Shown here: positions 25,480 through 53,800 of the stretch, piece by piece
How the letters are laid out: every line of letters begins with the position of its first letter
Numbering within the stretch: position 1 is the stretch's first letter
DNA from: Mytilus trossulus
Taxonomy: Eukaryota
NCBI RefSeq assembly: GCF_036588685.1
Contig: NC_086376.1
Coordinates: 83,265,014-83,329,013, forward strand
DNA length: 64,000 nucleotides
Reading direction: 5' to 3'
The notes under the pieces: model-generated
Told to the model about the DNA's origin: nothing
Databases searched by the model: none
Seen by the model: the letters and a program-made list of their open reading frames with translations, nothing else
Translations under genes and position numbers: made by a program

Positions 25480-25668
<189 letters not shown>

Positions 25669-31300: not shown

Positions 31301-31498
31301 TCAAGAAATCTCAATGTTTTACAATGAAAGTTGTAGATTTTTTCTAGTGTTACGTATATGAATCAAACATGGGTTTTGTTGGTTTTTATCTCTATTTAAT
31401 TAGATAGGCAAAATAATCATACACAACAGTCTAGAATTGACTCTTTAATTTGATAGATGTACAGAATTCTAATAACCAACATTTATGTACTGTACACA

Positions 31499-32595: not shown

Positions 32596-33433
32596 TGTAA
32601 CATTTATAACTTACATCACTCGTATAAATGAGTATCATAGGTACTGTTTCGACCGTTTAAAGTAGAACATTTTACCTAATTATTCGTGAAATATCATAAA
32701 TGTATGGTGTTTTTATTTTTTTATTCCTGCAAAATAAAAAAATAAAATAAGATGAAATAGAAGTTGTAGCTGTATTTTAAGATAGATATTATATACAAAA
32801 CTAAAATTTTAAAAGGAAAACGTATATTTTAATGAAAGTGAAATACATTTTCAAAATATTCTCAAACACCCATATTAAGGGGAAGTAACTCTTGTGATTT
32901 TAAATTTCTACAAACCGGCAAACCCCGCAAATCGGCTGTTTCCGTAGTCCAACGGTCGACCGATTTTGAGAAGTTCACTGAAATACCATAACAGGGACGA
33001 ATCAACTTCGGGCCGATATTATATGGGACGAGATTGACACCTTGACTTCAACGCACTTGCAAATATGACGTCATATGATTACGCTGGATAACAAAAATGG
33101 AGAATCCAAACGCAGATGTTTTCAGATAAGTATTTGATTTAACATATAATGATTATGAAATACAATTTGTTGAGGCAATATAAAACATTTAGGATTTTAA
33201 TCTGAGCAAAACATCAGAAAGTTTAGGCAGACAATAAATTAATGAAGAATGATAAATTGATATATTGTTGTCACATTCATAACAGACATATCGTAATCTG
33301 ACATGTAAATGGTACATGGGTATATATGATAATCTGATATGTAGAAATTAAATTGTGTGAATAATATTCATCGTAAATTAACTTGGTGAAACGTTAATAA
33401 TAATTTAAGTCGCCAGTTTCATCTTCAAGGGTT

Positions 33434-33438
<5 letters not shown>

Positions 33439-33468
<30 letters not shown>
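33439..33468. repeat. Homopolymer poly-G run (30 nt)
   Basis: Direct reading. It sits between the two TTCATGAA arrays. It could be genuine (G4-prone) or a two-colour-chemistry poly-G assembly artefact. Confidence 0.9.
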
Positions 33469-33469
<1 letters not shown>

Positions 33470-33811
33470 ACTAAATTTGAGTTTAACTTAAACTTCCAAT
33501 GCAATTTAAGATGCATAATGCTGTTTCTATTGAATGTATTGCTTCATACAATCATTACCTCTTGAACAATTGATTCTTTGTGGATATTTTTGTACTTTTA
33601 GGGGATTAAATATGAGCTGCCAGCAATGATATGAAACAGATTTTATGCAGACTCCATTTTAATACCTTTATTCAGCAATTATTGTTGGAAATACAGAGAC
33701 AGCAAGTTTTGAATTACAGAAAGGAAGAGAAGTTTATATATCACACATAATTTTTATATTAGTTAATCAGTTTGTGGATTTACCAGTGATAATTCCAGTG
33801 GAATCTACTGG

Positions 33812-34130
33812 AACAATTCATGAACAAGAAAGGTTCATGAACATTTAAGTGTTCATGAACTTCAATGTTCATGAACAATTTATGAACAAAGTTCAAGAAC
33901 AATTCATGAACAAGAAAGGGTTCATGATCATTGTTGTTCATGAACATTTAAATGCTCATGAACCTTTCTTGTTCATGAATTGTTCATGAACATTAAAGTT
34001 CATGAACATTACTGTCGATTTTCAGTTCATGAATTGCTCATCAAATGTTCATGAAGATATGATGAACTGTTCATGAAATATGTTCATGAACAGTTCATGA
34101 AATGTTCATGCATATTCATGAATTATTCAT
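33812..34130. repeat. Dense array of palindromic GTTCATGAAC motifs, cluster 2, containing a roughly 50-bp-arm perfect-ish hairpin (33811-33860 vs 33935-33984)
   Basis: gaacaattcatgaacaagaaaggttcatgaacatttaa.tg.tcatgaac and its reverse complement about 75 bp downstream; more than 20 TTCATGAA cores. Confidence 0.85.
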
Positions 34131-37100
34131 TATCATCTCACAGGGGTTCCATTCTGATGATTCTGAAAGTACCATCATATATCAATTAGGCAAGCTAAAT
34201 AAATAAAAGAATATAAGAGAATCCTCTACTTATTCAGATCTAAACTTTACAACCTGATATCCTTTTAATCCCAAACCAATTAATTCTGACTTATTTATTG
34301 AGTTACACCTCCATCATATAAGCTGTGAAAAATAAGGTCCTGAGAGGTCTGAATTCAGTACTAATTAACATAATGGTGTACTAATACCATAACTGTGACG
34401 CTTTGTTATAGAACTAGATGTACTGTAAAACACGAACAGTGTAAATTCTATTATAGACTTATACACCCAAAAATCTGCTTATAATCTAGACGGGGCCGTA
34501 TTATTTCATAGCAACAAAAAGATGGTCAATGATAACACTCTCTTCACAGCCATTCAGAGGATAGGACATAAAATAACTATATAAACACTTAAGAAGCAAT
34601 TTGATAAGTGACCATTAGACTGTAACATTATGTTTCATAAATGAACAAATATGCTAGAGTTGTCTTTCTTCTTAAAAAAAACTGCAGTGTCTTAGACTGG
34701 ATTCTGATTTCTAGACATGTAAAAATTGCTTTTTTAAACAAGATACAAAATAATTTCTTTAAAATGTTTGCAAAAATATACTTTTAGATAGTTTCCTGCA
34801 ACTGGATTTACCCAACTTGATAAATTCTCAACTTGTCAATCATTTTCATTGAGTATCAGAAATGTCTTCAACAAGTTCTCCTACTATGTATTTGTCTTAT
34901 ATAATTATGCTTGACTCGTATGGGTGACATATGCAGTAAATAAATAAAATATGTGCATTAAATTGTAACAAGGACATCATTTCTGGTTTACTATATCTCT
35001 GTTTGTCACTGAAGATGACAATTTTATGATAATTAAGTTTAAATTAGATTTAATGTACTTATCAAAGGAAGAATTTCAAAATACCACTTTGGATACATGA
35101 TGAAATGTTGTCTGTCCACAATATTTTCATATAAACCATACATGTAAATGACTCATGATAATTAGGCCTTATGAATAAACAATAGATTTCCTGAATTCTT
35201 AAATGCAAACAAATCTAGTTTAGTAAATTTAACAATTATCATACGCAGCAAAAAGTTGTCATTAAAGATAGATCATAATGTGTACAAGTAAACCACAAAA
35301 TTATAATCAACTGTAAAAAACAAATTAATAACAAAAGAGGACACACAGAAATGTCTTGCACAGGTAAATGAGATCTTGATTCTAACAAGTTCATGGTCAG
35401 TAATTAGAAAGTAACAGAATAAATAAGCAAAATCTTATTTACTGAATTATGAAAATGAGGTCAAGGTGAAGTTTAACCTGCTGGACAGACATTTAAACAT
35501 GTATTAAAAGGATGATTTGAAATAAATTTGATTTGTCCATGGTATGCTTTCAAAAGTAAAGGTTCACTAAAAAAATCATATCTAGTTGTGACTGATTGAG
35601 GAAAAGGAAGAGTTTTACTGTTTTATAATTTTAATAATATTCATTACACATATATGTACATGCACCAGCTCAAGTCACTTTTAAGTAGTATATCAAATTT
35701 AAAAATATCAAATTCCATTTGGCAACATATTGCACTATGCCAATATATTATATAATTAGATTAATAAGTTTTACTCATAATCAATACCACCATTTTTGAT
35801 GAAAATTCAAATTCTAGGAAAAATTACAATATAATTATCTTGAAACTAATAAACAATTGATGTACTCTTGAGCTTTATCATGCAGACAAAGGGAAGGGAG
35901 GCCGTTGTTTACAGGTTTATCCTGTTTATTCAGTCAGTCTCTTCCTGTTCAAAACATGACCATCAAGAGCATGTCTTCCTCTGATTTAAACATACTACAT
36001 ATTTAAAAACAACCAAAAAAAAATCAATCAACCAAAATTATCTAATTTCCAATACAGGTATAATTTTTTTCCAAGTAATCCACAATTTCCTTGTTTTCCT
36101 GTAATTCTCAGCCTGTTGCATTTCAATTAAGTCATGCCTGATTCTGGTTACTCATAATTACTGAACTCAAGTGTGTTTCCAAGGACTGATTTGAACCAAG
36201 CAACAATGATAAAATTGAATCATAAATTTATGAAACGCTTTGCTTTAAACATACTAGACAAAGGAATATTTAAATTCGTAAGAGACGCAAACATTAACCC
36301 CACACCTTGACAGATGCCACAAAAATGTGGCGCAATCTTTGTTATAGTAATTTACATTTTCACTGTTACTAATCTAGTGTAGGAGTAAAAATCGATAATC
36401 ACATAACATCCTGCCAACAGATGAATATTTCCCTTTAAATGTAATTTTTGTGTCATAATTTAATTTAGATTTTAAATTTTGGAATAAAAGAACAAGCATG
36501 AGGAAGTTTAAGCAAGGACAAATAAACATAAACTTGATTTAATACTTAGAAATGTACTTAGCCCACCCATTACATGTACGCAGAATTGTTTGTCTAGTAA
36601 CTGGGACTGTTGACTTCATGACAAACATTTAAATCTTCATATTTCACAACACATCATCAACAAGTCAAATAACTAGGTCAAAACTTCATAATCCAATATG
36701 TTATGAAATGATAGAAACGAAATTTTACTTTCAAATAAGTATTTCTAACTTTTAACATCACATATGTTGTGTCAGATACAATTTTGATATTATTGATTGG
36801 AACTATTGTTTTCGAATAATCTTTATCATTAGATCAGCTAGGTCAAGTGTTTGAATAAATATATATATTTCACATAATGTGTGAATGGCATATGTCTAAT
36901 CGCTGTTATTGTTTAGCTTCAAAAGAGAAATCAATTTCAAATATATAGATTTCTTTTCATAACATGTGTGTGGATATTTGTTGACATTGGCAAATATAAC
37001 TATGTACAGACTGAAACATATTTGTTTATCTTCAAGGTCAAGAAGAGGGATTTGCCAGCTTCATGTATATATACAATAGAATTCACTGTCTGACCAAAAA

Positions 37101-40100
37101 AACATAAAGGAAGTTGGGGACTTAATATTTTTTTCTTTCTACCACAAGTTTTAAGTCAGGATTTCCTGAAGATAACTTTGCTACCCACTATATCATGGAT
37201 TGGTTTTAGCCTTCATTTGTTTTAAAATTGTGACCAAAACATATTATTTGCATCAATTTTTGCACAGGGATTACTTGAAAGTCTTTTTAGAATCAACACC
37301 AATATAACATCAGCTATCAATATAACACTTTAGTTTGTCACAATATTCAAAGGTAATTGATGAAAGTTATATAGAGGAATGAAGGAATAATGAATTATAC
37401 TTGGTCTAAGTGAAAATTGTCAAAACTATAGTTTGTTGCTTATTAACAGTACAGGCCCTCATACAATTTGAACAATTGCTAGACTGGCACAAATTTTGCA
37501 GACTAAATCTTGTAACATGTTTTACTGTTGATCTACTGAGACATATGCTGTACATGTTCTAGCCACCTTTAGTAAACTGTTATATAAATAAATTCTTACA
37601 CCATATATAGATATAAATTGACCTAAAACTCATTAACTCACACCTGAGAAACAGAAGTCTTGACCTTAATATGTCAGTTGAAAGAAATGAACTACATATA
37701 TCTTCTAACCTAATAGGGTACAGGTGTCAGACCTTAACATTCTAACATCTGTCTTCTAGTTTTACTTACCTAAGCAAAACATTTTAAGACACTAGGTAAG
37801 AAATTTTGAGGGAGTCAAACTGAAGTGTTCAAACCTGATCATCTTTTATCAACTTCAAAGTAACAGGTAGCAAAAAGCCTATACTGTATACAGCCTTTTT
37901 GAGTTAGGGTGTGCTTTTGAAATTTATGTTTTGACAATGCAAGTTTAACTGCTGAGAGACATTGATATGAATACAAGGTAATGTGGGGTTATGTCAATGG
38001 GACAACGACCTGAATACTTCCAAAAAAAATCAATCGAAATATGGCTCTATACCCTAAAGTGGGTCTCATTCGGGGTCTAAGTCAGATTATTGTGTCGTGA
38101 AAACGGGAAATGTAGTCTGGCGGGACACAGGAAATGGAAAAAAATAGAAATTTGCTAATGTACATAGTGTAAGCAGGATATGGGAATCTGACAAAACAGT
38201 AAGCGGGATCCAGAATCAGAACCCCATTGAGACTGACCATAAAGGTTGCATGCAAATTATAATTTATAGTTTTAGGTCTATAGGTTATTAGATTACAACT
38301 ACCAGCCTTCTCGAGCTTCATTGTAAAATTTGTCAGTCTTATAAAACAAAGACTGGAAATAGAATATATGGAAAAAGAGAAAAAAATTCCAGCTGTTGAT
38401 ATCTTATTTTTTCACACATTGCCTATGACAAACATTGAACATGGTATAAAGTTACATTACATTTAACACCAGACAGTATTTACTAACTTCAGGTGTTTTT
38501 AACCCCCTTATATATACTTAATATCATCAATTATATGTATATAAATGGATCATCTATGCCTAAATTAAGCAACAAATCAAATATTCCAATATTCATTATC
38601 TAAAATTGCTAAATTATTAATTATTATACATAAACAATATTAGCCAATATGTTAAAAGTTTACTGACTGTGAATAATGGCTTAGGTCAATAATTGGTCAT
38701 ATCCTTGGGCTCAGACCTAAAATAACTCAGTATAAACAAAGATGAAATAAATAAATATACTTTGTATATATATAACTCATATCAAAGAAAGTACAGAGGT
38801 CTTTGTTTCATCTACCATTTAAAATATGACTTGTTTGATGGATTATAAAACATACAACAGAAATATTTAACACTAAATCATGTGACTAAAATAAAGATAT
38901 AAACATTCAGAAATGTTAGTTCACAAGTATGTTCATCATGCCAGTCAACATTACACAAATAAGTATAACTTTTCTTCCTCAAAATCAAAGTTATACAATC
39001 AACAGTGCTTAATTATTTGTTGTCTTATTTCAGTTCTGAAGAAAATCTCTTGCACTTAGTTATAATAACGGATTCAACAGTAATGCATGTTGTAATATTC
39101 TTGGAAGCATATATCATTTGACTTGTATATTGTCAGTGATTTGAGGCTAGTGATAAGGATTTGACATATAAAGCATGCACTTGTACCCATTTCTGAAATT
39201 AAAGACCCTATTATGTTGTTCTCTAGATTTCTATTTGGTTTCATTTAGTTGTTGGGCTGCTGTCTATTGGACTCTTTTCAGTACTGGAGTTTTTCTTTTA
39301 AAGTAGTCAAGGTAAATAGAACTTGGTTTTTCTTGGTTATGCATGAGAGAAGAACTTCTCCTAAATATAAGAAGGCTACAACTCCTAGTAGATGGTCCAC
39401 ATGTGGCTGGTTTTATGGACCCCCTTTTTTGGAAATGATCAATGCATTTGAATGGGAGCATATAGTTGGAACTCCCCCTTTACTCTGGGTTGGGAACCCC
39501 CCATTTTTAAAATGGCTGGATCCACCCCTGACCACTACCTTTATATTCTATTTAGGACAACAAATCTGTTCCTTAAATAGATGGTGTTATGAATTATTCA
39601 ATCCAGCTTTATTTTACTACCCATACATGTATTTGCAAAGTGCACCATAAAAAAAAATTACAACTTTGTGAGCCATTTACATCAAATGCATTGAACAAGG
39701 AAAAATCAATATAGTATTCCATGATGCCAGTAAATATTTCATATCTTAATAACAGCTTTCATTCTGGATAATCTCTCTCATGTCCAGAGAGATTCTAGAT
39801 TTACATTAATTCTCCCTGTGCAAGGATTGAATAACCTCTGGTGAAAGTCATAATGTTGAACAAATACATCACATCTGCTAAGACTAATGGATTTGTACTC
39901 TTTGTTCCAAGGTCAATATAATTCCATAAACGGAACTTCTAACTTTAAGACTTGGAAACCTTACTATTTGGCACCGGGACAGGGTGTATTTATAATTTAT
40001 ATATTTTTTATTGACAACTACAGAACAAGTATGTGTGCAAGAAGATTCTAATGTTTGTGTAGATATTTCCCTTTAATAGTAGACCATAAGAGCAAAATTG

Positions 40101-41265
40101 ATTTTAAATAATGTTGAGAGTTCTTGGAAGACGTGCCTCTCATCCCAAACTAAAACTGTCTACTTGTTTAGGTTCTACGAGAATTTGTGTACAAGTTTCA
40201 TAAAATTGGCATGAATCAAACCTAAATATGTATAAACAAATGGTCAAAAGGAAAACTTATAATTAATGCCCACTTTGCAGAGGAATGGAAATAGTGCTTC
40301 AGCATAAATAAAAAATGTTGGCATATCTGCATATAACTTAGTGAAAACAAGTATTTCAGGGCACAAGGTGATAAAAAGAATTGCAATCAAAAAGCACAAA
40401 AATTACCCTAAATTGTGTTCTACACTAAAAAACTGAATGCTTGCATCGTATAGTTAGTTTTAAAACTTGAGTTTTCCTAAATTTTTTAGGAATGGTCAGT
40501 ATCTGCCACATGAACTCCTCCCATTTGGAAATGTAGGTCAGTTTCTATAAATATAACAAGCGGATAAACATCTGCAACCTGAGGATTATCAACTTCAGAT
40601 ATATATCATTTTCATATTGATTCTCCTTAAGATAAAAGGAAATAAGTTGTCAATTAACATGAATGGACTAATATTCAACAGCTTGTTCAGTACACATAAA
40701 CAGTTGTAGGAAGCAAAGATTTGTTATCTGTTTTTCCATTGAATTAAATTTTCTCGCATAACTATATTATATGCAGTCACAAACTTATAATAAAACCTAA
40801 GATAGTTAAAGTGACTGAACTATTCTAATAGCGCTCAAGCTTTTAACAGTGTTGTTTATCCACAATTTGAATACTTTTCTATATTTGAATTCTTGGATAA
40901 CTTATTCTTTTTATCACATATTGACCATTGATTTTAATGGAAATAAAGTTAAAATCAAATGTATGTATGTTACACCATGAATGCATGGTTATATGTACTA
41001 GACAAAGACTGCAGAACTGGTTATTTCCAGCTAACAGAACTGGTTCTAGCTATTTATATCTCTTTAAAATTAAGAAATTTCTAAATATTGATTCATGAAA
41101 ATTATTGTATAATGAAAATTAATATTCTCTGATTTAATAATGATTACTATAATATATAGTTGTAATTTTTGTGTTTATAATGCCACTCTAAAGCACCACT
41201 ATTTGACTCTTTTGTGGCAGCCAGTTTTTATTGGTGGAGGTAGTCTGTCAAGTGCCAGAAGAAAA

Positions 41266-42982
41266 CCACCAACCTTCTACAGGTAAACTGACCAACCTAG
41301 TAAATTAAGATTGGAGATGGTTCAAACTCACCACCTTCTACAGGTAAACTGACCAACCTAGTAAATTAAGATTGGAGATGGTTCAAACTCACCACCTTCT
41401 ACAGGTAAACTGACCAACCTAGTAAATTAAGATTGGAGATGGTTCAAACTCACCACCTTCTACAGGTAAACTGACCAACCTAGTAAATTAAGATTGGAGA
41501 TGGTTCAAACTCACCACCTTCTACAGGTAAACTGACCAACCTAGTAAATTAAGATTGGAGATGGTTCAAACTCACCACCTTCTACAGGTAAACTGACCAA
41601 CCTAGTAAATTAAGATTGGAGATGGTTCAAACTCACCACCTTCTACAGGTAAACTGACCAACCTAGTAAATTAAGATTGGAGATGGTTCAAACTCACCAC
41701 CTTCTACAGGTAAACTGACCAACCTAGTAAATTAAGATTGGAGATGGTTCAAACTCACCACCTTCTACAGGTAAACTGACCAACCTAGTAAATTAAGATT
41801 GGAGATGGTTCAAACTCACCACCTTCTACAGGTAAACTGACCAACCTAGTAAATTAAGATTGGAGATGGTTCAAACTCACCACCTTCTACAGGTAAACTG
41901 ACCAACCTAGTAAATTAAGATTGGAGATGGTTCAAACTCACCACCTTCTACAGGTAAACTGACCAACCTAGTAAATTAAGATTGGAGATGGTTCAAACTC
42001 ACCACCTTCTACAGGTAAACTGACCAACCTAGTAAATTAAGATTGGAGATGGTTCAAACTCACCACCTTCTACAGGTAAACTGACCAACCTAGTAAATTA
42101 AGATTGGAGATGGTTCAAACTCACCACCTTCTACAGGTAAACTGACCAACCTAGTAAATTAAGATTGGAGATGGTTCAAACTCACCACCTTCTACAGGTA
42201 AACTGACCAACCTAGTAAATTAAGATTGGAGATGGTTCAAACTCACCACCTTCTACAGGTAAACTGACCAACCTAGTAAATTAAGATTGGAGATGGTTCA
42301 AACTCACCACCTTCTACAGGTAAACTGACCAACCTAGTAAATTAAGATTGGAGATGGTTCAAACTCACCACCTTCTACAGGTAAACTGACCAACCTAGTA
42401 AATTAAGATTGGAGATGGTTCAAACTCACCACCTTCTACAGGTAAACTGACCAACCTAGTAAATTAAGATTGGAGATGGTTCAAACTCACCACCTTCTAC
42501 AGGTAAACTGACCAACCTAGTAAATTAAGATTGGAGATGGTTCAAACTCACCACCTTCTACAGGTAAACTGACCAACCTAGTAAATTAAGATTGGAGATG
42601 GTTCAAACTCACCACCTTCTACAGGTAAACTGACCAACCTAGTAAATTAAGATTGGAGATGGTTCAAACTCACCACCTTCTACAGGTAAACTGACCAACC
42701 TAGTAAATTAAGATTGGAGATGGTTCAAACTCACCACCTTCTACAGGTAAACTGACCAACCTAGTAAATTAAGATTGGAGATGGTTCAAACTCACCACCT
42801 TCTACAGGTAAACTGACCAACCTAGTAAATTAAGATTGGAGATGGTTCAAACTCACCACCTTCTACAGGTAAACTGACCAACCTAGTAAATTAAGATTGG
42901 AGATGGTTCAAACTCACCACCTTCTACAGGTAAACTGACCAACCTAGTAAATTAAGATTGGAGATGGTTCAAACTCACCACC
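41266..42982. repeat. Tandem satellite/minisatellite: 61-bp unit (caccaccttctacaggtaaactgaccaacctagtaaattaagattggagatggttcaaact) x about 28, copies apparently 100% identical
   Basis: Period 61 verified by line-to-line phase shift across 1.7 kb. Unit length is not a multiple of 3. It sits in intron 3 of the polyamine oxidase gene. Confidence 0.95.
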
Positions 42983-43239
42983 TAGTGTATTGTTTAGAGA
43001 TGGGTGCTAAATGATTTACAGAAAAGGGCAGCAAGACTTAAATTTGCATCCAGAAAAGGCAACTGAGTGACAAAATGAGCAATAATTCTGCAGACATTGA
43101 AATGTCTTGCCTGTTATACTGATCCTGATAGATTTTGTCTTTTAGATATTATTATATAAAAATTTGTTTTCAGTTTTATATGAAATATAGTGAAAACTGC
43201 AAATAAACAATTAACTGATGATGGATTGATTGTTAGCGA

Positions 43240-43480
43240 TTTATCGCCACTTTGGCCTATGTGGAGGCCAGTTTTGATTGGTGGATGAAGACGGAGTACC
43301 CAGAGAAAACAACTGACCTTCGATTGGGAAACTTGAAGTGGAGTGAACACACAGGGGCTGGGTTTGAACGCAAAACCTCAATGTTGACTGGCTAGTGATT
43401 ACAGTAGTACCCAATAAACAAATAACCTTGCACTGTGTCTTAACATTTGATCCCCAAACTACAATTCCAGCATCTCCTAC
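43240..43480. repeat. Single-copy diverged paralog of the SINE-like sequence from which the 61-bp satellite unit and its 5' flank (41200-41265) derive
   Basis: gtggaggccagttttgattggtggatgaagacgg..gaaaacaactgacc..ggtttgaacgcaaaacc parallels ggcagccagtttttattggtggaggtagtc..gaaaaccaccaacc..ggttcaaactcacc. Confidence 0.5.
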
Positions 43481-45630
43481 CATCAAATGTGAAATACTTG
43501 GCAGATTCAGTTAGTTTGAATAGGACAGGTAATTTTCACTACTTCTAAAGTAAACAAAGATAAGCTTTACCACTAATATTTATGCACAATATACCTACAT
43601 TCCCTGAAGCAGTACATGTAAATACAGAATCGATTATATTGGCAAATATTATAAATTTCTTCTCCAGATATCATGTTGATTCAAGATTTTCTAAATTCAG
43701 ACTGATTAATTGGTTTAAACTCTGATAGCTGTAAAAAACCTGCAACTAATTAGAAATTATCAGATATGTATTCCATTTAAATGACAGTTTTTGTGCTATG
43801 GCATAATTACTACTATATATCCCATGGCCATTTACATACATTAGATTATAAATGAACAGCAACTAAAAGCCCTAACAGAAGGTTGTAAACGAAATTTAAA
43901 GCAGTCATATTAGATGTCATAGGACATTTGGCAATGACCAATATATATATATATGTGACTATATCAAATCAATAAGAGTACAGAAAAGAAATGGTAAATT
44001 GAACTTAAATTGGAGTGTTCATTGTTAAAGGATATACCATAATATGCAAGTCGAATCAACAAACTCTGTTGTTTGTTGATTTATACGTTGATTTATAATC
44101 TAAAGAAATGAACCACTTTGTTTGCAACCCTGTTTTTTTAATTCACCAAAACATATATCCATGCAGTCACATGTATGCATTTTATCTGCATATCCATTTC
44201 ATGACATTGAACTAATTTTACAGTGAACCAACTCATTGTAGTTCTTTTAAAACAACTAAATATTGTCAAATGAAAGCTTAAATCTGATGCTAGTACATTA
44301 TCAACAACTCTTAACACTACTGGCAAATAACTTAAAGCTAAATGTCTCATAAATTTATCATATTTACGCTATTTTTAGCAAATAAAACAAATTCACCAGA
44401 CTATATTATGAAACTGATGACATTTAAAAAGTTTTATTTTTTTACGGTAGTTGGTCACAAAAAACTTCAGGGAAATTCTTAACATGAAACTTTTTGATAG
44501 CTTATAAAAAGTGTTGTGAGCCTGAAGGTATAGGTCACTGTCATGAATAAATATTTTCCAGCTATTGCCGCCAGGAAATCTGTCTAGATGTTATATATCT
44601 AATAGGCAAATAAACATGTTACATTCTATTTAAATAATTTCAAGGTCTTCAAAAATGTAAAATTAAATAACACATTCTTTTAAAATGATGATTGTTTGCT
44701 AGACAATAAAATGAGATATATTAAATGTCTTAACAATTCAAAGTCAAACATCAAGGCACTGTATGCAAAATGCATTGAACATTGTACAACCATAATCAAA
44801 ATACACCTTTTTTTCTTAAAATTCATAGCACTTTTAAAACTGCCCTTATGGTCAAACACTTGCATTACATATAAACTTGTACAGCAATGGAAAATTCAAA
44901 ACTAGACATCAGATTTCAACTTCAATTTTTTTTTTAAAGTTAATTCCAAAAGATTCCAAAATGTACCTCTAATCCTTTATCACTGAACACCATATTGATT
45001 ATTCCAGCTCATTGTAGGCTACAGCTCTGATATATGTAAATACTAAATACTAAATATATATACAACTCAGCTTAAGCTCAGACTTTTACTGTGCTGCTAA
45101 TAGACTGTGTTGCTAATAGTCACTTAACGTATTGTTAAATTACCACAAAAATATGTAAGCTGCAACTACAGTATGTAACCTTGAAGATCTCATAGTAAAA
45201 ATATACATTTACTTCAGTACATACCAAACCTTCTATTCAATGTGGTTTATTATTTGTCATGTATGCCTTGAGAATCATACTCAATAAAAAAAAACATTTT
45301 AACCAGTACATACTATCCAGAATATACAAATTTATATGTTCTCCAAGCTGCAATTGGCAAATGTCTAGAAGGCCTTCCCCAGTTCTTAAGATGGGGACAT
45401 TAGAAGCCACTTAAATGTAACATTAGTTGTCACGAACTACAAAACATTACAAGTCTTCTGTCTTTTATCTAGATTGCCTTTATACATAGAAATATGCTCC
45501 CAGAGAGGTTCAATGTATGAAATATCTTATAATATGAATGAACTGAGATGTATGTAAAGTATGCCTAAATGACCATGCGATAAGACAGCTAATTCAAAAG
45601 GTCATTATACAATATTCAACAATAGACAAT

Positions 45631-45730
45631 AACATTAGTCCAGATAGGGCAGATTTTAAATGCTTTAGGTCCAGACATATAACATTAGTCCAGATAGGGC
45701 AGATTTTAAATGCTTTAGGTCCAGACTTAT
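45631..45730. repeat. Perfect 50-bp tandem duplication (aacattagtccagatagggcagattttaaatgctttaggtccagac(a/t)tat) with a diverged third copy following
   Basis: Direct reading. Confidence 0.85.
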
Positions 45731-46394
45731 AATGTGAGTCCATATGAATTGCTCCAGGTTCACACATTTAGATATTAACATTGATAACCATCATAGAGTT
45801 TTCTGACTTAGAACAGACAAATTAATGTATGGTAAGGTCTAACAGGTTTGGGAATACATGTACCATTACTACATGTGTGTTTAACGACCTTCACCACCCA
45901 TAAGGGTATTGCACTGTTTGTCCTGGCTTATAAGTCTTTTTCTGCTTTAATACATTATAATTTATCTTAACTATTCAAGCTTACAGTTTAAGTCAATTTG
46001 GTGGTAATAAATTTGACAGCTTATAATGCATTTAAAATGATGGATTATTGATCTTTAAAGCCAAATGATGCTTATAATGAATTATGTTTTCAATCATTAA
46101 GATAAAACAAAACTGCTGTAGTGTATAAAGTTAGATCTAAATATATATATATATATAGCTATCTTCTGTTTGGAATTATTTCATCTATTATAAAAAAAAA
46201 AAAAAAAAGTTCAAATATACATACAAATAGAAATGAAAAAGAATATGAATCTTGACTTTTATTTCTTTTCTGTATTTCGGTAAATTTCGTTTTGACAAAA
46301 ATATCAAAATATTATTCATTATCAATTATGGAACCATATAGATTTTGAGACTTTTGTCCAATTGACAAACATTAACCTTAATCTTTAAATGACA

Positions 46395-46965
46395 AAGGAG
46401 TATGTTCGATAAGGTCCTAAAATGGCCCCCTTTTTTAGCGTAAATTTCAAATTCAGATTTATCGACCAATATCACGATAAATTACAGCTAATACATTGAC
46501 TACCCAGGATATAAACCATTTTGTTGAAAATTTAACGTTTCTGCGTTTCATTATGACCTCACAAGTTGCACTCATATTGATTTTTCACCAAAAAATCAAT
46601 GAAAATGGGTAAATTTCCATAGATTATTGGACAGGAAACATAGAGCGCATACGTCGACAACAAAGATCTTTCAAAATAATGTTTGTGAAGACATTTCACA
46701 TGTCTTATTTAAATCTTAAGCTTGTCGACCTCTGCGCTCTATGTTTCCTTGTCCTTTATTTGGTTGAAATCTAGCTGATTTTGTCAAATTTCACCAAAAT
46801 CCCTTATTTTCACCTTTTTGGGATGTAAAAATCAACGTGTTAGAATTAAACTTTGACAAAAACAGTTCTGTTTAACTTTCTAACATGTATTTGAGGCAAC
46901 TTAAAACATTTATTGTCTTGTAACTATGAACTTTATAATTGGGGCCAAATATGGCCCTTACCGAA
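46395..46965. mobile_element. Long imperfect palindrome / foldback element: outer arms 46395-46435 vs 46925-46965, inner arms 46629-46659 vs 46723-46754
   Basis: aaggagtatgttcgataaggtcctaaaatggccccc vs reverse complement of ggggccaaatatggcccttaccgaacttactcctt; ggacaggaaacatagagcgcatacgtcgaca vs tgtcgacctctgcgctctatgtttccttgtcc. Confidence 0.65.
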
Positions 46966-47277
46966 CTTACTCCTTTTAAGTCTTACTTTTCTGGCTTTGT
47001 TTGTTTATTGTTTATTGTTGTTTTGTTTTTAAATCTTCCCTATAGAAGTAAGATGTAAATTGTTTTAAACCGAGTGCTTTAAGTCATTAAGTGAAACAAG
47101 TGCATTACGATGACTTTGACAAACCGTTAGAATTTTAATAATGTGTGGTTTCATATATATGCACTCTATCAAATATACTTAATATCTTATTTATACCATA
47201 ATACTTCTTTGTAAAGGTATTTACATCTATTTATCATTCACTAAGGCAAACAAGTCCACAGTTTATATTTTAATTAA

Positions 47278-47575
47278 CCCTTTCCTCCATTGAATTTTTT
47301 TTTTTGCATACTTGATTCGCATAGGATTTTTTTGATAAAATGCTGAACTTATGATTTGAAGTACTAAAGCATTGTGAAAAACAACTATTTCATCAAATAA
47401 ATTTAAGTCAGATATTCCTATGATATTCCTTTTCATATTGGATACAAACTTTATTAAGTCAACTGCAGACACTTTGTAGTCGAAGTGTTTCAACTGAGGT
47501 ACTACACAGGCGTCAAAAGGCGTCATTATGGAGTAAAGGGGGTGGCGTCAAAAGGCGTCATTATGGAGGAAAGGG
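47278..47575. mobile_element. piggyBac-like MITE (about 300 bp) with TIRs CCCTTTCCTCCAT / ATGGAGGAAAGGG and flanking TTAA target-site duplication (47274-47277, 47576-47579)
   Basis: CCC...GGG termini plus a TTAA TSD are the piggyBac superfamily hallmark. The internal tandem duplication ggcgtcaaaaggcgtcattatggag is present twice. Confidence 0.6.
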
Positions 47576-48722
47576 TTAAACTTTGACTATATATCTGGAA
47601 AACATTTAAACACAACCATGTATTCTTGTAAAGAGGTACATAATGCTTTTGGGTATAAACATTCTCTCATCAACACTTGAAGAAAGGATGAATCATACAA
47701 ATTCTAAAACCTGATCTGATTAAAATATACATGAATCACAAATCTATTACCCAATAATCATCAATTCCTAGTGATTCACTTGTTTAATCTTGTGTCATCT
47801 AATCTTTTTTTTGCAATTGAAAATGAAAAAAAAATCTTTACAACGATCAATACTAAGACCTGAGTAAAATATGCGAATATTTTGAGAGATGTGGATCTCA
47901 TTCAAGCTTGTCTTCTGATGATCAGCTGATTTTTAAGGCTTGTACAGGAAATACCTTTTGTAACTGTTGAATATCTCATTACAACATCAAAAGTCTGAGT
48001 ATTTTTACCTGTCTACAGGTTTAATACTTGTTACAGGTTATTCAATGTTATAAAAATTCATTGAAGGGGGTGTGGGAAAAGAGTGATAAAAAAAAGACAG
48101 GTAGAAAAACCCAACACACTGTATTATCTGACCTTTTAACCGTGATTAAAAGTATATGTTCCAAGTCACGTACAACCCTAGTGACAGGTAAAGGGAGGGA
48201 TTGTAGAATTTAAAATTCATACCAAATATACAAATTTTAAACCCTTTTAGAGATGACTATGCTGTATTGGTTTTGTTCATTATGGAGGACATATATGGTG
48301 ACCTATTGTTGTAAACTTCTGTCATTTGAAATTGGTATCTGGTAGAAAGATGTCTCACTATCAATTTACAATTATTCTAGGGGTGGATACAACCATTTTC
48401 AAAAGGGGCCTCTCAACCCAGCATAACCATGTGTCCCCATTCAAAATTGATAAACAACCATTGGAACCGCACACCAACTTCCCCCATATAAATTAAAGAA
48501 ATCAAACCTTATGACCATCCACATATAGACAATACAATCTCTGGTTGAGGGAGTATTTGTCATGTCAATCAAATGACATGTCAATCAGTGCTTTAATCAA
48601 TAATTTGAATACACATATAATATGCATGATTAAAAAAAAAACAGGGGTCACAGTAATATGGGATCATGTTAATGTATGTAAAGTGCAAGTTAACATGAAT
48701 ATTGTTTGAAACATATTGTTAC

Positions 48723-48852
48723 CTGATGACTTTTCTTGGCTGTGGAATGTCTTTTTTACTAAGGAATTTTTTCAGAGCCTCCACAATGTCTTGTCCTATC
48801 TGCTCTTCCGTCAATGACTCCATATACAGTGCTTCTTTACCACTTAACCATC
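48723..48852 (-). CDS. Polyamine oxidase (SMOX/PAOX-like), coding exon 3 (130 nt; GWLSGKEALYMESLTEEQIGQDIVEALKKFLSKKDIPQPRKVIR)
   Basis: Matches the SMOX segment SGWICGEEALVMEK...NIPKPRRILRS. Acceptor ttttttag| (plus 48853-48855 = cta); donor CAG|GTAACA (plus 48717-48722). Reading frame closes exactly with exon 2 (G+GA=Gly) and exon 4 (AG+G=Arg). Confidence 0.8.
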
Positions 48853-49039
48853 CTAAAAAATTATACCAGTTACTGAAACATGTGTAAATATCAGAAATCA
48901 CATTTATTGAGACTCCTTGCACATCTATATATTCTTCTTTATCATGTTTATACATACTTGTTTTTGTAATATGTTGGAGATGTTCTCAAAAGTTTCCCCT
49001 TTGAACAGGGGCTCTTTGCACAAAAAACATACAATTAAA

Positions 49040-49295
49040 ATCCAGTGTGAGTGGTTGTCGTTTGTTTATGTGTTACATATTTGTTTTTCGTTCATTTTTT
49101 TTTATATAAATAAGGCTGTTAGTTTTCTTGTTTGAATTGTTTTACATTATCTTATCTGGGCCTTTTATAGCTGACTATGCGGTATGGGTTTTGCTCATTG
49201 TTGAAGGCCATACGGTGACCTGTAGTTGTTAATGGCTGTGTCATTTTGGTCTCTTGTGGACAGTTGTCTCATTGGCAATAATACCACATCTTCTT
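49040..49295 (+). mobile_element. SINE-like repeat, related subfamily, full-length
   Basis: agtggttgtcgtttgtttatgtgttacatatttgtttttcgtt..gggccttttatagctgactatgcggtatggg..gttgaaggccatacggtgacctgtagttgtt..gacagttgtctcattggcaataataccacatcttc. Confidence 0.7.
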
Positions 49296-50658
49296 TTATA
49301 TATATTACAAGTTTTTTTCTTCATAAGATTTTTTGTTAAATGAGTGGCAGGTTATTTTTAATACTACATTTTGTACCTGCATAAATATGTTTTATACTAT
49401 TTTATACACAAAAGTTAATTCAGATTTATATTTTGAATGATTGTAGGTGATTAACTCTGTAATATTACTCTGCATTATGCATATATTGCTAAAGTATTAG
49501 ACTGATGTATGCCCTAGTCTTAAAGACAGGGTCATACAACAGTGCTATAACCTTGAATCCCCAGCCATCACTCTGTTACACATGAATCACTCATACAACA
49601 AGAGTGTTTTTAAATGTACATGCTACCTTAAATAACCTTGCATTCAAATCTTTAATGATCCTAGTATCCATATGTACATGTTTTGTTACTGTATACATGT
49701 ATAATACCACTACCAATGATTTAATAATTAAGAGGAGATTAAGCTTGCTGCAAGAAAATATATAAATGACCACAAACTCAAACCTAAGCTTGGAAGCATT
49801 ATCAATGTCCTCAATGTTTTAGTTGGGAATATTTATCATATCAGTAATTCTTAACAGAATTAAATATGTTTGGAAAATATCACCTTGCTCAATATCTCCT
49901 TTTATTTATACATTGTCATGATTGTAGTTATACATAAACATGCATATCTTGCACAAAATTCAAAAATCACAAGATTTATTTTATAGCATAAATATATGTA
50001 TATAAGTGTATTTGAAATGTACAGGTCTGTAATTTATATTTACAGTTTACCCTGATGTCTGAGGAAGTTGATAATTTACAAAATGTACATACAGAAGATC
50101 AAACAGAAATATGCATGTACTGGTGAGCAACTGCTGAATGTAAAACTTAGTTTAAAACCATTAAATATGTACTTTGTATTTCATTAAAAGAAGATGAATA
50201 CATCTATTAAATACAAATAAAGTGCATGTGTACTTTCAAATCTGTCTCCCATCACCTGACTGACATAAGTTCGCTATTTGAAATATAAGTCAGGCCAATG
50301 TCTATATATAATTTGGTCTTGTGCCAGTTGTGGGTGTCAATATAAGACTGACACTGTATGAAATTTGTCACCAAAGTACAATTCCATTTATAGGCAAATC
50401 TTATAATTTTGTAGTCACAAGCCTGCAAATGCAGAAATGTGTAGCCCTGCAATTATCCTAATTTAACTGTTTAGTCTGTACTGTATATATGATTATGGTG
50501 ACCCTATTGCTAATACAAATGTAGTACCTAAGAAACAGAATCACATTAAAAAACCTAACATACATATATAATCCATTGAATGAACCATGAAAATGAGGTC
50601 AAGTTCAAGACAGACATCTACCCCTTGCAATCATTCCATACTTATAATTATAATATAA

Positions 50659-50855
50659 TACTGTGGATTCCTTATTATTCGTTGGATACCAATTTTCGTG
50701 GGTTTCGTGGGTACAGGTGAACCACGAATTTAAATGTTCAACAAAAATATAAATTTATAATATGCTTTGTTTGCAGAGGTTGTAAAACCACGAAATCAAA
50801 TATCCACGAAAATGCAAGTTTTCCTCAATTCACGAAAAATAAATGAATCCACAGT
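50659..50855. mobile_element. Candidate small MITE with 12-bp TIRs TACTGTGGATTC / GAATCCACAGTA, possible TA target duplication, internal ttcgtgg/ccacgaa hairpin repeats
   Basis: TIRs read directly; flanks ata|ctgtgg ... ccacag|tac. Confidence 0.45.
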
Positions 50856-53800
50856 ACCCTATCCAAGCTATAGAAGTTTATATAGAACTATTGTTTATAG
50901 TATAATAATATTCTAGAAATACAGTTTTACTGCAATAAACTTAACATTGAGCACTGTATGTACATGAAAATGAGGTCAACTTAAAGTTAAATGAGACCTG
51001 CTAGGTGGACATGTACACATGCACCTTACAATCATTCCATACACAAATATAGTTGACCTATTGCTAATACATTGTACATGTACTAGACCCAAAATCATAA
51101 CCTTGATCACAGATCCATGAAATCAGGTTTGTGGTCAGGAGAATTGTAATTCAACACATTCTTTTAGTTGTAAACTGAAGATTGGGTATTCTATTTTGGA
51201 AATTACTTAAAAATCAATGGAAAACAAGTCATGTGATGATGTCCAAACTTGCATATAATCATATAAAGGGACACAACTAAAGATTGGTAAATCTACATTT
51301 TATAACTCTGACAATCCCAATCCAACTCTAACTGTGTTTTGTGGTAATATAAGCATTGACATTGTGTGCAGGTGTCATAACATCTGGTTGAAGCAATCTA
51401 AAGTTACTTAGAGAACAGAAACAAATTATGAGACATACATGTATGCATGATATGCAGGGAATCTTCACAGCAGCAGGGTCATAAAAAATTGATGCGATTT
51501 AAAAAAAAAATGAAAAAAATAATCTGTGCTGAATACATATATGCTACTAATGAACATGTAGTTGTGTAATGTTGACAAAAAAGGTACCAATGCACACCTT
51601 TTTGCCTTTAAAACTGAACTTGTAGATGCACATGTATACATGTATCATGTGTATATATGTATAGATTTTTATGACAGACAAGAGATACAGCACAACTGTT
51701 ATCCCAGTTTGTCGTATATCTAGATCTGCTTTAATTCGGTAACTTTGTCATGAATTTGATGCAAGGATGTCAGATGTCAAATGAATAAATTTTGTGTTCA
51801 AGGTACATGTATGACATCATGACCGTGACATGAAAAATGCATACATAGTTCTTTTGACACAACAAAAGTTGTAAACATTCTGCCATTTAATTGTGAAATT
51901 TCAAATCAAAATCAAACATATATATCAGAAATGTCAAAAGATTTATTTGGAAAAAGAATTTAAATTTACTTACAACCATGACAACATATACACCGGTACA
52001 GTATATTAGATTTATCATATTTGTATTTAAATGTATGTGACCATGCTTATAGCCACAAGCAAAGCTTTCAAAACTCTCTTCAATGTCTCATGATGAAGTT
52101 AATTAACAAATTCTAGTGGAAAAGTAATTTTCGCACATTGGGGTTAGAAAAAAATCATTAACTGCATTTGGGCAAGACAGAAAACAACTCTCTTCACAAA
52201 ATGATCAACATCACGTTTATATCACCCAAGGTTAGGATTGTGCAGAAAGTTTATTGACCGCTGCAATTGAAAGAAGGCAAATGCTACACTGAATCTTCAT
52301 TATAATCGATACAGAAGACATGAATTAACCCATTGACTGAAAACTGACCGGCCAATGAACTCTTTACCTTTTGTAATTCTACAGACTGGGGATGCCCTTA
52401 AAATTGTCATTTATACATGTAATCATCTATGCACACACACACAATTGTAAAGTCAAATGAAAATTTACCATTCTCAAACAATTAATTTATAATACTTCAA
52501 CAATATCAATTTCACAAAATATGGATAAGCTAAGATTTAAGACTTCAGCTACTGTCAGAGTTACATTCACATTGAACTTGAAGGTACATTAATTCACTGA
52601 GTGAGAGTATATACATGTATATATATAAGTTTTATCAATGCTACACTGCACAGCTTTCGTGTCAAACAAGGACAAATCACAGGTTACTGTCCTCAGAGAC
52701 AAATATGTTTTCTTTCCACATGTATTGCTTTACATTTACATTTCTAACCATCCCTTCACCTTAAAAGTTTTAATCGTTTTCACTGCATGCTCTCTGAGAG
52801 GATCAACATAATCTGTTGAGTCATTGCTTCACACATTTTCTGCAATCAACCTTTCCTTTTTTTTTTCTCTTTTATATAATTTGAAAGCCAGCTTTGAAAT
52901 TGTCAGAAACCTGGTGGAGATGGGCTTGTCCTTTGTAATCTAAATCATTGATGGATGTACAAAAATGTATACAATGAATGAAATGAATATAGTACCAGTT
53001 GAACCTGGACTGTAATAAATCATTCAATACAAGGATGAAGAACAGCACTAGTTTAAAAAAAAAAAAAAAAGTAAAAAAAAAAAAGAACAGTGCTACACCT
53101 AATGATGTACAATTGCAAAAGTTACATGTAACAGAAAAACACATACATTAAGTTGCAGTGCCGTACATGGACATTGACATTTACACGGAAAAAAGTTGAA
53201 CATATAATTTTCTTATCGTATTCCTTACTTCGGAAACAAACTTTTCTTTTCAAAATCAGATCTGACACATAATTTATATTTTTAAAGTTAAGGTGGTACC
53301 TAACACTACAGGGAGATAAGTCTATAAAGTCATCTATAAGTTTTAATTATATTGTGTTGTAAAAGGAATATTAAGCTTATCAATGATCAAAATTGGTGTT
53401 GGTCAAACTGCTATATATATATATATAACCAGTGTATTTTTTCTGACAAAACGGTTGGTTAAAAACTTTTAATAAATGTGTGTCAAAAATCCACAAAAAA
53501 TAGGGCCAGTTGGATTGGTTGTAATCAAAATTTATACTTAATTATGATATTGTAAATTGTTATATTCCAATGATCTCCGACTTATCTCTTGATTGCTATG
53601 TAATTATAGACTATAGGTCCCTTCAGGGCTCCAGAATTCTTGAGTTAGGTTGGTAAAATCACAAGTATTTTTTGTATACCTATATATATATATTAAGTTT
53701 CATGTACTAATACGTTTGTAGCACCTGGTAACTATTGATTTTGTTCTATAACAAATGTACCATGGTAACAAATAAATAATAATCATGATAATAATAGTAC

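What the first reader, a model, noticed from the sequence alone, without database searches (positions are those of the whole stretch)
41266..42982. Perfectly homogeneous 61-bp x about 28 satellite inside intron 3, derived from a SINE-like sequence whose unexpanded paralog lies 300 bp downstream
All of the roughly 28 copies appear base-identical over 1.7 kb, which implies very recent expansion, strong homogenization, or assembly collapse. The 5' flank of the array (41200-41265) and the unit itself are homologous to a single-copy diverged sequence at 43240-43480. So the satellite arose by tandem amplification of an internal segment of an interspersed element. A 61-nt unit cannot be coding. It sits in the longest intron of the PAO gene.
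Basis: seen in the sequence. Interest (0 to 1): 0.6.

Follow-up and report, generated by a model that had tools for sequence, protein, structure and literature searches.

The report
Young SINE-derived intronic minisatellite in mussel
A 61-bp piece of an old jumping-gene copy (a SINE) sitting in an intron of a mussel spermine-oxidase gene has recently been copied head-to-tail 28 times without a single error; it is a clean but ordinary example of how tandem repeats are born from mobile elements.

Summary
Window 41272-42983 is perfectly periodic with period 61: 1712 bp, 28.07 units, no mismatch. The window is Mytilus trossulus or something very close to it, because its spliced CDS is 475/475 identical to XP_063435007.1, spermine oxidase-like. 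The array lies in intron 3 of that minus-strand gene. That intron is 21.3 kb, the longest.

Orthologous loci from other mussels settle the origin:
- M. edulis (two assemblies) and M. californianus have an empty site.
- M. galloprovincialis has the same insertion unexpanded. It is one 209-bp, 5'-truncated SINE with an A-rich tail and a 16-17-bp target-site duplication.

So the array is a lineage- or haplotype-private amplification of about 29% of one SINE copy. It was seeded between imperfect AGGT(T)GGTG direct repeats. It is very young: at most about 5% of the trossulus-edulis divergence time. The "paralog" at 43230-43419 is an older copy of the same SINE family, shared with M. edulis.

The array is non-coding, has no special fold, and was found nowhere else that I could search. 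It is best called a single-locus minisatellite (VNTR), not a satellite family. SINE- and TE-derived tandem arrays in bivalve introns are already described. Copy number and perfect identity cannot be verified without reads.

The parts
41272..42983 (-). Perfect 61-bp tandem array, 28.07 units with zero mismatches. The unit on the gene-sense (minus) strand is GAACCATCTCCAATCTTAATTTACTAGGTTGGTCAGTTTACCTGTAGAAGGTGGTGAGTTT in the TRF phase.
   Evidence: Periodicity test; TRF 41263-42983, score 3426. Every unit maps to positions 42-120 of the 210-position SINE family HMM.
41263..41271 (-). Ancestral, non-homogenised edge of the founder unit (plus strand AAACCACCA; sense strand ...GGTTGGTGGTTT). It carries the downstream copy of the AGGT(T)GGTG microhomology.
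   Evidence: alignment with L005.
41165..41262 (-). Unrepeated 3' body and shortened A-rich tail of the array-bearing SINE copy (sense strand ...TTTTCTTCTGGCACTTGACAGACTACCTCCACCAATAAAAACTGGCTGCCAC...GTGGCATTATAAACACAAAAAT).
   Evidence: Alignment with the M. galloprovincialis, M. edulis and window paralog copies; nhmmer hit 41336-41166, E 1.5e-38.
41159..41164 (-). Remnant (TACAAC) of the 3' target-site duplication. About 22 bp of tail plus TSD are deleted here relative to the M. galloprovincialis allele.
42985..43000 (-). 5' target-site duplication copy (sense strand TCTCTAAACAATACAC). The SINE starts at 42984 (TAG...). About 14 bp (CCAGTAAACACTGA) present in the M. galloprovincialis allele are missing, so the array abuts the SINE's 5' end.
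   Evidence: Empty-site alignment; L005 sequence; coordinates.
43230..43419 (-). It is orthologous to M. edulis L002 25684-25911.
   Evidence: nhmmer E 1.6e-51; synteny blast; alignments.
27469..48722 (-). Intron 3 (21,254 bp, GT-AG) of the spermine oxidase-like gene, which hosts both SINE copies and the array.
   Evidence: tblastn. Splice reconstruction gives a 475-aa product identical to XP_063435007.1.
25480..58511 (-). Coding span of the spermine oxidase-like (SMOX/PAO) gene, five coding exons: 58511-58361, 55072-54158, 48852-48723, 27468-27351, 25593-25480.

Best explanation
This is a single-locus intronic minisatellite (VNTR) born from one SINE insertion. There are four steps; 1 and 2 are shown, 3 and 4 are inferred.

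1. Insertion (shown). A 5'-truncated, roughly 210-bp copy of a short A-tailed retroposon (tRNA-head-type SINE) inserted into intron 3 of the spermine-oxidase gene, in sense orientation. It duplicated the target TCTCTAAACAATACAAC. The insertion landed about 250 bp from an older copy of the same family.

2. Later amplification (shown). In the lineage or haplotype of this window (M. trossulus-like), a 61-bp internal segment was amplified to 28 head-to-tail copies. The segment runs from the degenerate box-B region to the first part of the body, about 29% of the element. The orthologous M. galloprovincialis allele keeps a single copy.

3. Seeding of the first duplication (inferred). It was seeded by slipped-strand mispairing or microhomology-mediated repair between two imperfect direct repeats that bracket the segment. 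These are AGGTGGTG / AGGTTGGTG in the window and AGGTTGTG / AGGTTGGTG in the unexpanded allele. All repeat junctions carry the hybrid form.

4. Growth and age (inferred). Further growth came through replication slippage and/or unequal sister-chromatid exchange. Zero substitutions in 1712 bp, against 7% substitution divergence from M. edulis and M. galloprovincialis at the same locus, puts the last expansion or homogenisation at no more than about 5% of that divergence time. The 95% bound comes from exp(-1712 x 0.035 x t/T). Taking about 3.5 My for the split (from memory), that is roughly 0.2 My or less.

No function is indicated. The array is most likely a neutral, probably copy-number-polymorphic by-product of SINE sequence architecture.
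For: Array anatomy.

Species and gene: (475/475 identity to M. trossulus XP_063435007.1).

Empty site: CTCTAAACAATAC|AACAGTAATC in M. edulis L001 and L002 and in M. californianus L004.

Same insertion, unexpanded:
- M. galloprovincialis L005 24966-25174 is flanked by TCTCTAAACAATAAAC and TCTCTAAACAATACAAC.
- TRF finds no tandem repeat in it.
- It shares the target site, orientation and 5' start (TAG...) with the window copy.

SINE nature:
- The M. edulis ortholog of the older copy begins GGGCCTCGGTGGCAGAGTGGTC.
- Its box A is TGGCAGAGTGG, an exact TRGCNNAGTGG.
- It has a box-B-like AGTTTAAACCC about 45 nt downstream, is about 229 bp long, and ends in an A-rich tail.
- A five-sequence family HMM hits all copies, and each array unit maps to HMM positions 42-120.

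Junction microhomology.

Non-coding, with no unusual fold (DNA fold z = +0.5).

Divergence calibration.

Precedent: tandem-like SINE arrays of the form TSD1-(SINE)n-TSD1 in bivalve introns (PMC11481361), and TE-to-tandem-repeat mechanisms (PMC9659126).
Against: - Copy number and perfect identity rest on one assembly. No reads were available.
- Rfam's tRNA model and ARAGORN do not recognise the SINE head. The 'tRNA-derived' label therefore rests on box motifs and architecture only, and the superfamily could not be assigned.
- The window and M. galloprovincialis copies of the SINE are more diverged (about 77-80% identity over aligned columns) than the flanking intron (about 93% counting substitutions only). 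This is not fully explained; possible causes are indels, alignment problems in the tail, or gene conversion.
- The insertion is present in the M. trossulus-like window and in M. galloprovincialis, but absent from M. edulis. This conflicts with the locus tree and needs incomplete lineage sorting, introgression or precise loss.
- Contraction to exactly one unit in the M. galloprovincialis allele cannot be formally excluded.
Confidence: 0.78

Rival explanations
1. Assembly or polishing artefact. The locus holds a repeat, but the number of units (28) and/or their perfect identity were produced by mis-assembly (collapse or over-extension) or by consensus polishing that homogenised the units.
For: Perfect identity over 1.7 kb is an outlier in this window. 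Nothing in the tools can check reads. Only one assembly of this haplotype was seen: exact-product look-ups of flanking ORFs found no other contig.
Against: - The window has no N and is contiguous.
- The array edges are biologically sensible: an ancestral variant edge is retained at 41263-41271, and the SINE and TSD context matches an independent species' assembly.
- A 1.7-kb array is shorter than typical long reads. The assembly named in the literature for M. trossulus is a haplotype-resolved, 45x, 1,371-contig assembly (PMC11304980). That it is HiFi-based is from my memory only.
Confidence: 0.12
2. The array was generated at the moment of retrotransposition, by reverse-transcriptase template switching or jumping during target-primed reverse transcription, rather than by later slippage or unequal exchange.
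For: Martelossi et al. describe TSD1-(SINE)n-TSD1 structures inside a single pair of TSDs in bivalves. Here too the array lies inside one TSD pair.
Against: - The orthologous insertion in M. galloprovincialis has the same target, the same 5' truncation and the same TSD, but only one unit.
- The units are identical, whereas the unrepeated part of the same SINE has diverged about 20% between the two alleles. Units that old would have accumulated differences.
Confidence: 0.04
3. The 61-bp repeat belongs to a dispersed satellite family, or to the internal tandem-repeat cargo of a mobile element (Helentron- or MITE-like, as in oysters). This locus would then be just one of many arrays.
For: Bivalve genomes are rich in short satDNA-like arrays carried by Helentrons and MITEs (PMC7492417, PMC8268682). 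The whole genome could not be searched.
Against: - The unit-junction 25-mer and the full 61-mer are absent from 342 kb of other Mytilus loci.
- Both are also absent from the JGI metagenome contigs, a collection that does hold some Mytilus contigs.
- The window has no other copy.
- The array flanks are ordinary SINE sequence with the SINE's own TSD.
Confidence: 0.07
4. The array is a functional intronic element. It could be a block of 28 decoy 5' splice sites / U1-binding sites (sense strand GTG|GTGAGT), or of degenerate box-B/TFIIIC sites, that modulates splicing, transcription elongation or chromatin at the SMOX gene.
For: Each sense-strand unit holds GTGAGT preceded by G, and a YAG acceptor 6 nt upstream. 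The plus strand holds CTTCTACAG|GTAAAC. The authentic intron-3 donor, CAG|GTAACA, is weaker at positions +4 to +6.
Against: - There is no conservation. The array is absent from four other Mytilus assemblies whose gene is intact.
- The implied 6-nt 'exon' is too short for exon definition.
- The box-B-like motif lacks the invariant C (AGTTTGAACCA against GGTTCGANNCC, read from the sequence).
- No expression data could be examined for this species.
Confidence: 0.04

Closest known systems
Tandem-like SINE structures TSD1-(SINE)n-TSD1 in bivalve introns (Martelossi et al. 2024, Mob DNA 15:22, PMC11481361)
   Same: Both are bivalve tRNA-head-type SINEs. In both, an array of SINE-derived units lies inside a single pair of TSDs, within an intron, as direct head-to-tail repeats.
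   Different: The described arrays have 2-15 units, each a nearly whole SINE truncated at head and tail, and are found mostly in Scapharca broughtonii. Here the unit is only 61 bp (about 29% of the element), there are 28 copies, and the copies are perfectly identical. An unexpanded ortholog also shows that amplification came after insertion.
TE-derived satellite DNAs of molluscs, e.g. PcH-sat of Patella caerulea from a Nin-SINE (PMC11121367), and Helentron/pearl-associated satDNA-like arrays of oysters (PMC7492417, PMC8268682)
   Same: In both cases a tandem repeat's monomer is a segment of a mobile element. Short arrays scattered in euchromatin and introns are typical of bivalves.
   Different: Those are multi-locus, often abundant families (PcH-sat makes up about 10% of the genome and is pericentromeric), with 91-99% identity between monomers. 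This array is known from one locus only, is 1.7 kb long, and has 100% identity.
Alu/SVA-derived minisatellites and VNTRs of primates, and satellites from the tRNA-related region of SINE-like elements (Xenopus satellite 1, Hydromantes Hy/Pol III), as tabulated in PMC9659126
   Same: The mechanism has the same logic: internal direct repeats or microhomology in a SINE seed a duplication that then expands. In both cases the amplified segment includes the Pol III promoter region.
   Different: The element family and host are different. No evidence was sought or found here for Pol III transcription of the units.

Membership tests
Minisatellite / VNTR | Head-to-tail direct repeats with a unit of about 10-100 bp and an array of about 0.5-30 kb at a single locus | tested here: met
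   Unit 61 bp, 28.07 copies, 1712 bp. There is no other copy in the window.
Minisatellite / VNTR | Copy number varies between alleles or individuals | tested here: inconclusive
   The count is 28 units here and 1 unit at the orthologous insertion in M. galloprovincialis. That comparison is between species. Within-population variation cannot be tested without reads or more haplotypes.
Satellite DNA family (sensu stricto) | Many or long arrays at multiple loci, at high genomic abundance | tested here: not met
   The junction 25-mer is absent from 342 kb of other Mytilus loci and from the metagenome contigs. No whole-genome search was possible, so this is provisional.
tRNA-derived SINE | Internal Pol III promoter: box A (TRGCNNAGTGG) and box B (GGTTCGANNCC) about 30-60 nt apart in a tRNA-related head | tested here: inconclusive
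   The best-preserved family member (M. edulis L002 25684-25911) has an exact box A, TGGCAGAGTGG. It has a degenerate box B, AGTTTAAACCC, matching 6 of the 9 specified positions, about 45 nt downstream. Rfam's tRNA model and ARAGORN give no hit (for the window).
tRNA-derived SINE | Short (100-600 bp), non-coding, A-rich or simple-repeat 3' tail, flanked by target-site duplications | tested here: met
   The full-length copy is about 229 bp. The L005 copy is 209 bp, has the tail ...ACACTAAAAAATCAAAATTCAAA, and has a 16-17-bp TSD. This falls within the 6-18 bp range reported for bivalve SINEs.
tRNA-derived SINE | Presence/absence of the insertion at orthologous sites, with a clean empty site | tested here: met
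   M. edulis (two assemblies) and M. californianus carry one copy of the target and no element.
tRNA-derived SINE | Multi-copy dispersed family | tested here: inconclusive
   Only two insertion events were seen (old and new copy, each with orthologs) in about 400 kb of Mytilus DNA. The whole genome was not available.
HCD SINE superfamily (Meta, V, Deu, MD, Core) | Homology of the central body to a named highly conserved domain | not testable with these tools
Rfam has no SINE models that matched.
TSD1-(SINE)n-TSD1 tandem-like SINE (Martelossi et al. 2024) | First unit with a complete tRNA head, internal units truncated at both ends, last unit with a complete tail, all inside one TSD pair | tested here: not met
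   One TSD pair and a complete-tail last unit are present. However, the element is 5'-truncated with no complete head, and the unit is a 61-bp sub-segment rather than a near-complete SINE. It resembles this class in mechanism but is not a strict member.

The most novel reading that the evidence does not exclude
The array could be an actively expanding, hypermutable intronic VNTR whose 28 sense-strand copies of a strong 5' splice-site motif (G|GTGAGT) act as U1 snRNP decoys. These would alter processing of the 21-kb intron 3 of spermine oxidase in carriers. That would make it a segregating cis-regulatory variant created in one step from a SINE.
Probability: 0.04. Interest if true: 0.55.

Novelty: new member of a known kind. 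Interest (0 to 1): 0.27.

Why it matters
The locus is a tidy 'before, during and after' series for the birth of a tandem repeat from a retroposon. The empty site is in M. edulis and M. californianus. The single unexpanded insertion is in M. galloprovincialis. The 28-copy perfect array is in the M. trossulus-like window. The microhomology that seeded the duplication is still readable at both edges. Such a series can be used to teach or test models of minisatellite origin. If the array is polymorphic, it would also serve as a hypervariable marker for the Mytilus species complex, including hybrid zones. It does not change what is known about how such arrays arise.

Tried and rejected
- Rfam and ARAGORN. 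I ran them on the array region, the whole window and the best-preserved M. edulis SINE copy. There was no tRNA or other RNA-family hit.
- Public metagenome contigs. I searched for the exact 61-mer and for the unit-junction 25-mer. Neither was found.
- SINE consensus or domain sequences in the literature. I used text searches for sequence strings and looked for supplements of Matetovici 2016, Nishihara 2016, Martelossi 2024 and Petraccioli 2024. Nothing usable is held, so the superfamily is unassigned.
- Other assemblies of the same haplotype or species. I tried exact products of ORFs flanking the array and of exon 2; none is on record. The M. trossulus RefSeq protein itself is also not in the contig index.
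- M. coruscus locus (L008). It is uninformative, because the site is disrupted by about 6 kb of other DNA.
- M. galloprovincialis 'Lola' contig (L007). It ends before the array region.
- Hairpin or cruciform idea. It is rejected: DNA fold z-score +0.5.
- Coding idea. It is rejected: stops in all six frames.
- My first guess that window 42986-43110 was the tRNA-like head of the array-bearing SINE. It is rejected, because that stretch is conserved flanking intron in all Mytilus species.
- An early inference that the host was a non-Mytilus mytilid, based on 88% identity to the cluster representative. Searches corrected it.

Full report
**Observation**

Tandem Repeats Finder reports one outstanding array in the window: 41263-42983, period 61, 28.2 copies, 99% matches, score 3426. 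A direct periodicity test shows that 41272-42983 is perfectly periodic. That is 1712 bp, or 28.07 units, without a single mismatch.

Twenty-seven full phases are identical. Only the first nine bases of the TRF interval (41263-41271) deviate, reading AAACCACCAACC instead of AAACTCACCACC. All other tandem repeats in the window are short (1.9-9.5 copies) and 65-96% identical, so the array is a clear outlier.

The unit is 39% G+C and has no CpG. It has stop codons in all six frames, with a longest stop-free run of 21-22 codons. No ORF of 25 aa or more lies in the array. Three units folded as single-stranded DNA are no more stable than shuffles, z = +0.5. Rfam and ARAGORN find nothing.

**Host and gene**

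The 312-aa ORF at 54111-55049 (minus strand) is an amine-oxidase exon of a molluscan spermine oxidase. Its nearest cluster holds the Mytilus SMOX proteins.

Reconstructing the splice sites gives five coding exons with canonical GT-AG introns. The 475-aa product is identical, 475/475, to XP_063435007.1, 'spermine oxidase-like [Mytilus trossulus]'.

Over about 25 kb of aligned non-coding DNA, counting substitutions only:
- the window is 93% identical to M. edulis and to M. galloprovincialis;
- it is 90% identical to M. californianus;

So the window comes from M. trossulus or a very close relative.

The gene is on the minus strand. Intron 3 is 48722-27469, 21,254 bp. It is the longest of the four coding-region introns, the others being 3.3, 5.3 and 1.8 kb, and it contains the array.

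**What the repeat is made of**

The unrepeated sequence just below the array on the plus strand, together with the unit itself, is homologous to a single-copy sequence at 43230-43419:
- local alignment score 103, against 33 +/- 5.7 for shuffles;
- blastn E 4e-6;
- a shared 21-mer core found at exactly these two places, with 0 expected by chance.

I fetched orthologous loci from four other Mytilus species through their SMOX proteins. These make the picture much sharper.

In M. edulis, the ortholog of the 43230-43419 copy is well preserved (L002 25684-25911). Read on the gene-sense strand:
- it begins GGGCCTCGGTGGCAGAGTGGTC, with an exact box A (TGGCAGAGTGG = TRGCNNAGTGG);
- it has a degenerate box B (AGTTTAAACCC) about 45 nt downstream;
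- it has a conserved body (...GAAGGTCAGTGGTTTTCTCTGGGCACTCCGGCTTCCTCCACCAA...);
- it ends in an A-rich tail, about 229 bp in all.

This is the architecture of a tRNA-head SINE. The tRNA covariance model and ARAGORN do not score the head, however, so that part of the label rests on motifs alone. The element lies on the window's minus strand, sense to the gene.

A family HMM built from five copies hits all of them. It places every array unit at HMM positions 42-120 of 210. That interval runs from the box-B region into the first part of the body.

**Insertion history**

Synteny blast across intron 3 shows that M. edulis (two independent assemblies) and M. californianus run straight from window 42986 to about 41148.

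The base-level alignment shows a clean empty site, CTCTAAACAATAC|AACAGTAATC, with a single copy of the target.

M. galloprovincialis (L005, GCA_965363235.1) has an insertion at exactly this site. It is a 209-bp element (24966-25174) that starts at TAGCCAGTAAACACTGAGGTTGTGAGTTTAAACC..., so it is 5'-truncated inside the tRNA-like head. It ends in ...ACACTAAAAAATCAAAATTCAAA. It is flanked by TCTCTAAACAATAAAC and TCTCTAAACAATACAAC. TRF finds no tandem repeat in it.

The window carries the same insertion, with the same target, orientation and first bases (TAG). It differs in three ways:
- it has lost about 14 bp right after the 5' end;
- it has lost about 22 bp of the tail plus most of the 3' TSD;
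- it has 28 copies of the 61-bp segment where M. galloprovincialis has one.

The order of events is therefore SINE insertion first and amplification later, in the window's lineage or haplotype only.

**How the array arose (inferred)**

In the unexpanded allele, the segment is bracketed by AGGTTGTG (just upstream of box B) and AGGTTGGTG (start of the downstream body). In the window the two edges read AGGTGGTG and AGGTTGGTG. Every internal junction is ...GTAGAAGGT|GGTGAGTTT..., the hybrid expected from mispairing of these two motifs.

An initial slippage or microhomology-mediated duplication, followed by replication slippage or unequal sister-chromatid exchange, is the standard route. It is the one reviewed for TE-derived repeats (PMC9659126).

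For age, the locus has diverged 7% by substitution from M. edulis and M. galloprovincialis. That corresponds to about 0.035 substitutions per site per lineage. The probability of seeing no substitution in 1712 bp after a fraction f of that time is exp(-60f). This gives f <= 0.05 at the 95% level. The present homogeneous array is thus very young relative to the species split, about 0.2 My or less if the split is about 3.5 My (a date from memory). Continuous homogenisation would give the same picture.

**What it is not**

- It is not coding.
- It is not a known RNA.
- It is not a hairpin-forming repeat.
- As far as could be searched, it is not a dispersed satellite. The 61-mer and the junction 25-mer are absent from 342 kb of other Mytilus loci and from the JGI metagenome contigs. 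The window has no other copy.

'Minisatellite' or 'VNTR' is therefore the better term. A whole-genome search was not possible.

**Artefact question**

I could not examine reads, and exact-product look-ups found no second assembly of this haplotype.

The array has biologically coherent edges. It retains the ancestral variant at one end, and its SINE and TSD context matches another species' assembly. At 1.7 kb it is also short relative to long reads. The published table for the M. trossulus assembly lists a haplotype-resolved, 45x assembly of 1,371 contigs (PMC11304980). I put about 0.12 on the copy number or the perfect identity being wrong, and much less on the array not existing.

**Comparison with what is known**

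Bivalve SINEs forming tandem-like arrays inside one TSD pair, often in introns, were described by Martelossi et al. 2024. Mollusc satellites derived from SINEs or other TEs are also on record (PMC11121367, PMC7492417, PMC8268682). So are Alu-derived minisatellites and satellites from tRNA-related SINE regions.

This case differs in degree, not in kind:
- the unit is a small sub-segment rather than a near-whole SINE;
- there are 28 copies;
- identity is 100%;
- the unexpanded and empty orthologous states are both available.

It is a new member of a known kind.

**Speculative readings**

On the gene-sense strand each unit carries G|GTGAGT, a strong 5' splice-site match, six bases after a YAG. 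The plus strand carries CTTCTACAG|GTAAAC. The authentic intron-3 donor is CAG|GTAACA. A decoy-splice-site or U1-binding effect is conceivable. There is no support for it, and the array is absent from congeners that have an intact gene. I give it about 4%.

**Unresolved points**

- The SINE insertion is shared by the M. trossulus-like window and M. galloprovincialis, but absent from M. edulis, against the locus tree. This could be incomplete lineage sorting, introgression in the M. edulis complex, or precise TSD-mediated loss.
- The two alleles of the SINE are more diverged than their flanks.
- The SINE superfamily (Meta, V, Deu, Core or MD) could not be assigned, because no reference consensus is reachable with these tools.

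Noticed in passing
window 32349-34146: About 1.8 kb is absent from the orthologous intron of M. edulis and M. galloprovincialis, and almost absent from M. californianus. Both ends are packed with the palindromic motif TTCATGAAC (TRF rows 32382-32588 and 33817-34130), and the middle holds a G30 homopolymer (33439-33468). It looks like a lineage-specific non-autonomous DNA transposon with subterminal repeats. I did not classify it. The G30 run could also be a sequencing or assembly oddity.
   Followed up: partly
window 41151-42984 vs L001/L002/L004/L005: The SINE insertion is present in this M. trossulus-like window and in M. galloprovincialis. It is absent from two M. edulis assemblies and from M. 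californianus. [quoted passage not shown] This implies incomplete lineage sorting, introgression or precise loss.
   Followed up: partly
window 43230-43419; L005 24419-24700; L004 30427-32153: The older SINE copy is shared with M. edulis. It is missing from the M. galloprovincialis allele, and in M. californianus about 1.7 kb of unrelated DNA takes its place. This small stretch of intron 3 is therefore structurally very unstable across Mytilus.
   Followed up: partly
window 63271-63987 (-): A 238-aa ORF contains ...FRYLDDILALNN...FLDLDI.... From memory this resembles a retroelement reverse-transcriptase remnant common in mollusc genomes. It has no Pfam hit at E <= 0.01.
   Followed up: partly
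window 47268-47579; L005 25361-25670: A repeat of about 310 bp contains the 35-bp x 1.9 tandem GGCGTCAAAAGGCGTCATTATGGAGGAAAGGGGGT. It also occurs in M. galloprovincialis immediately next to the SINE site, at a non-orthologous position. It is therefore another interspersed element active in the complex.
   Followed up: no
window 3584-4250 (+): Two overlapping ORFs (140 aa at 3584-4006 and 103 aa at 3939-4250) lie upstream. The 140-aa one has only sub-threshold coiled-coil Pfam matches (CCDC144C, E 1.5e-7, below the cutoff); the 103-aa one has none. They may be an exon of a neighbouring gene.
   Followed up: no
window 41272-42983, both strands: Each unit holds a sense-strand G|GTGAGT six nt after a YAG. 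It also holds a plus-strand CTTCTACAG|GTAAAC, which resembles a recursive splice site but is antisense to the gene. That makes 28 tandem copies of splice-site-like motifs inside a 21-kb intron.
   Followed up: partly
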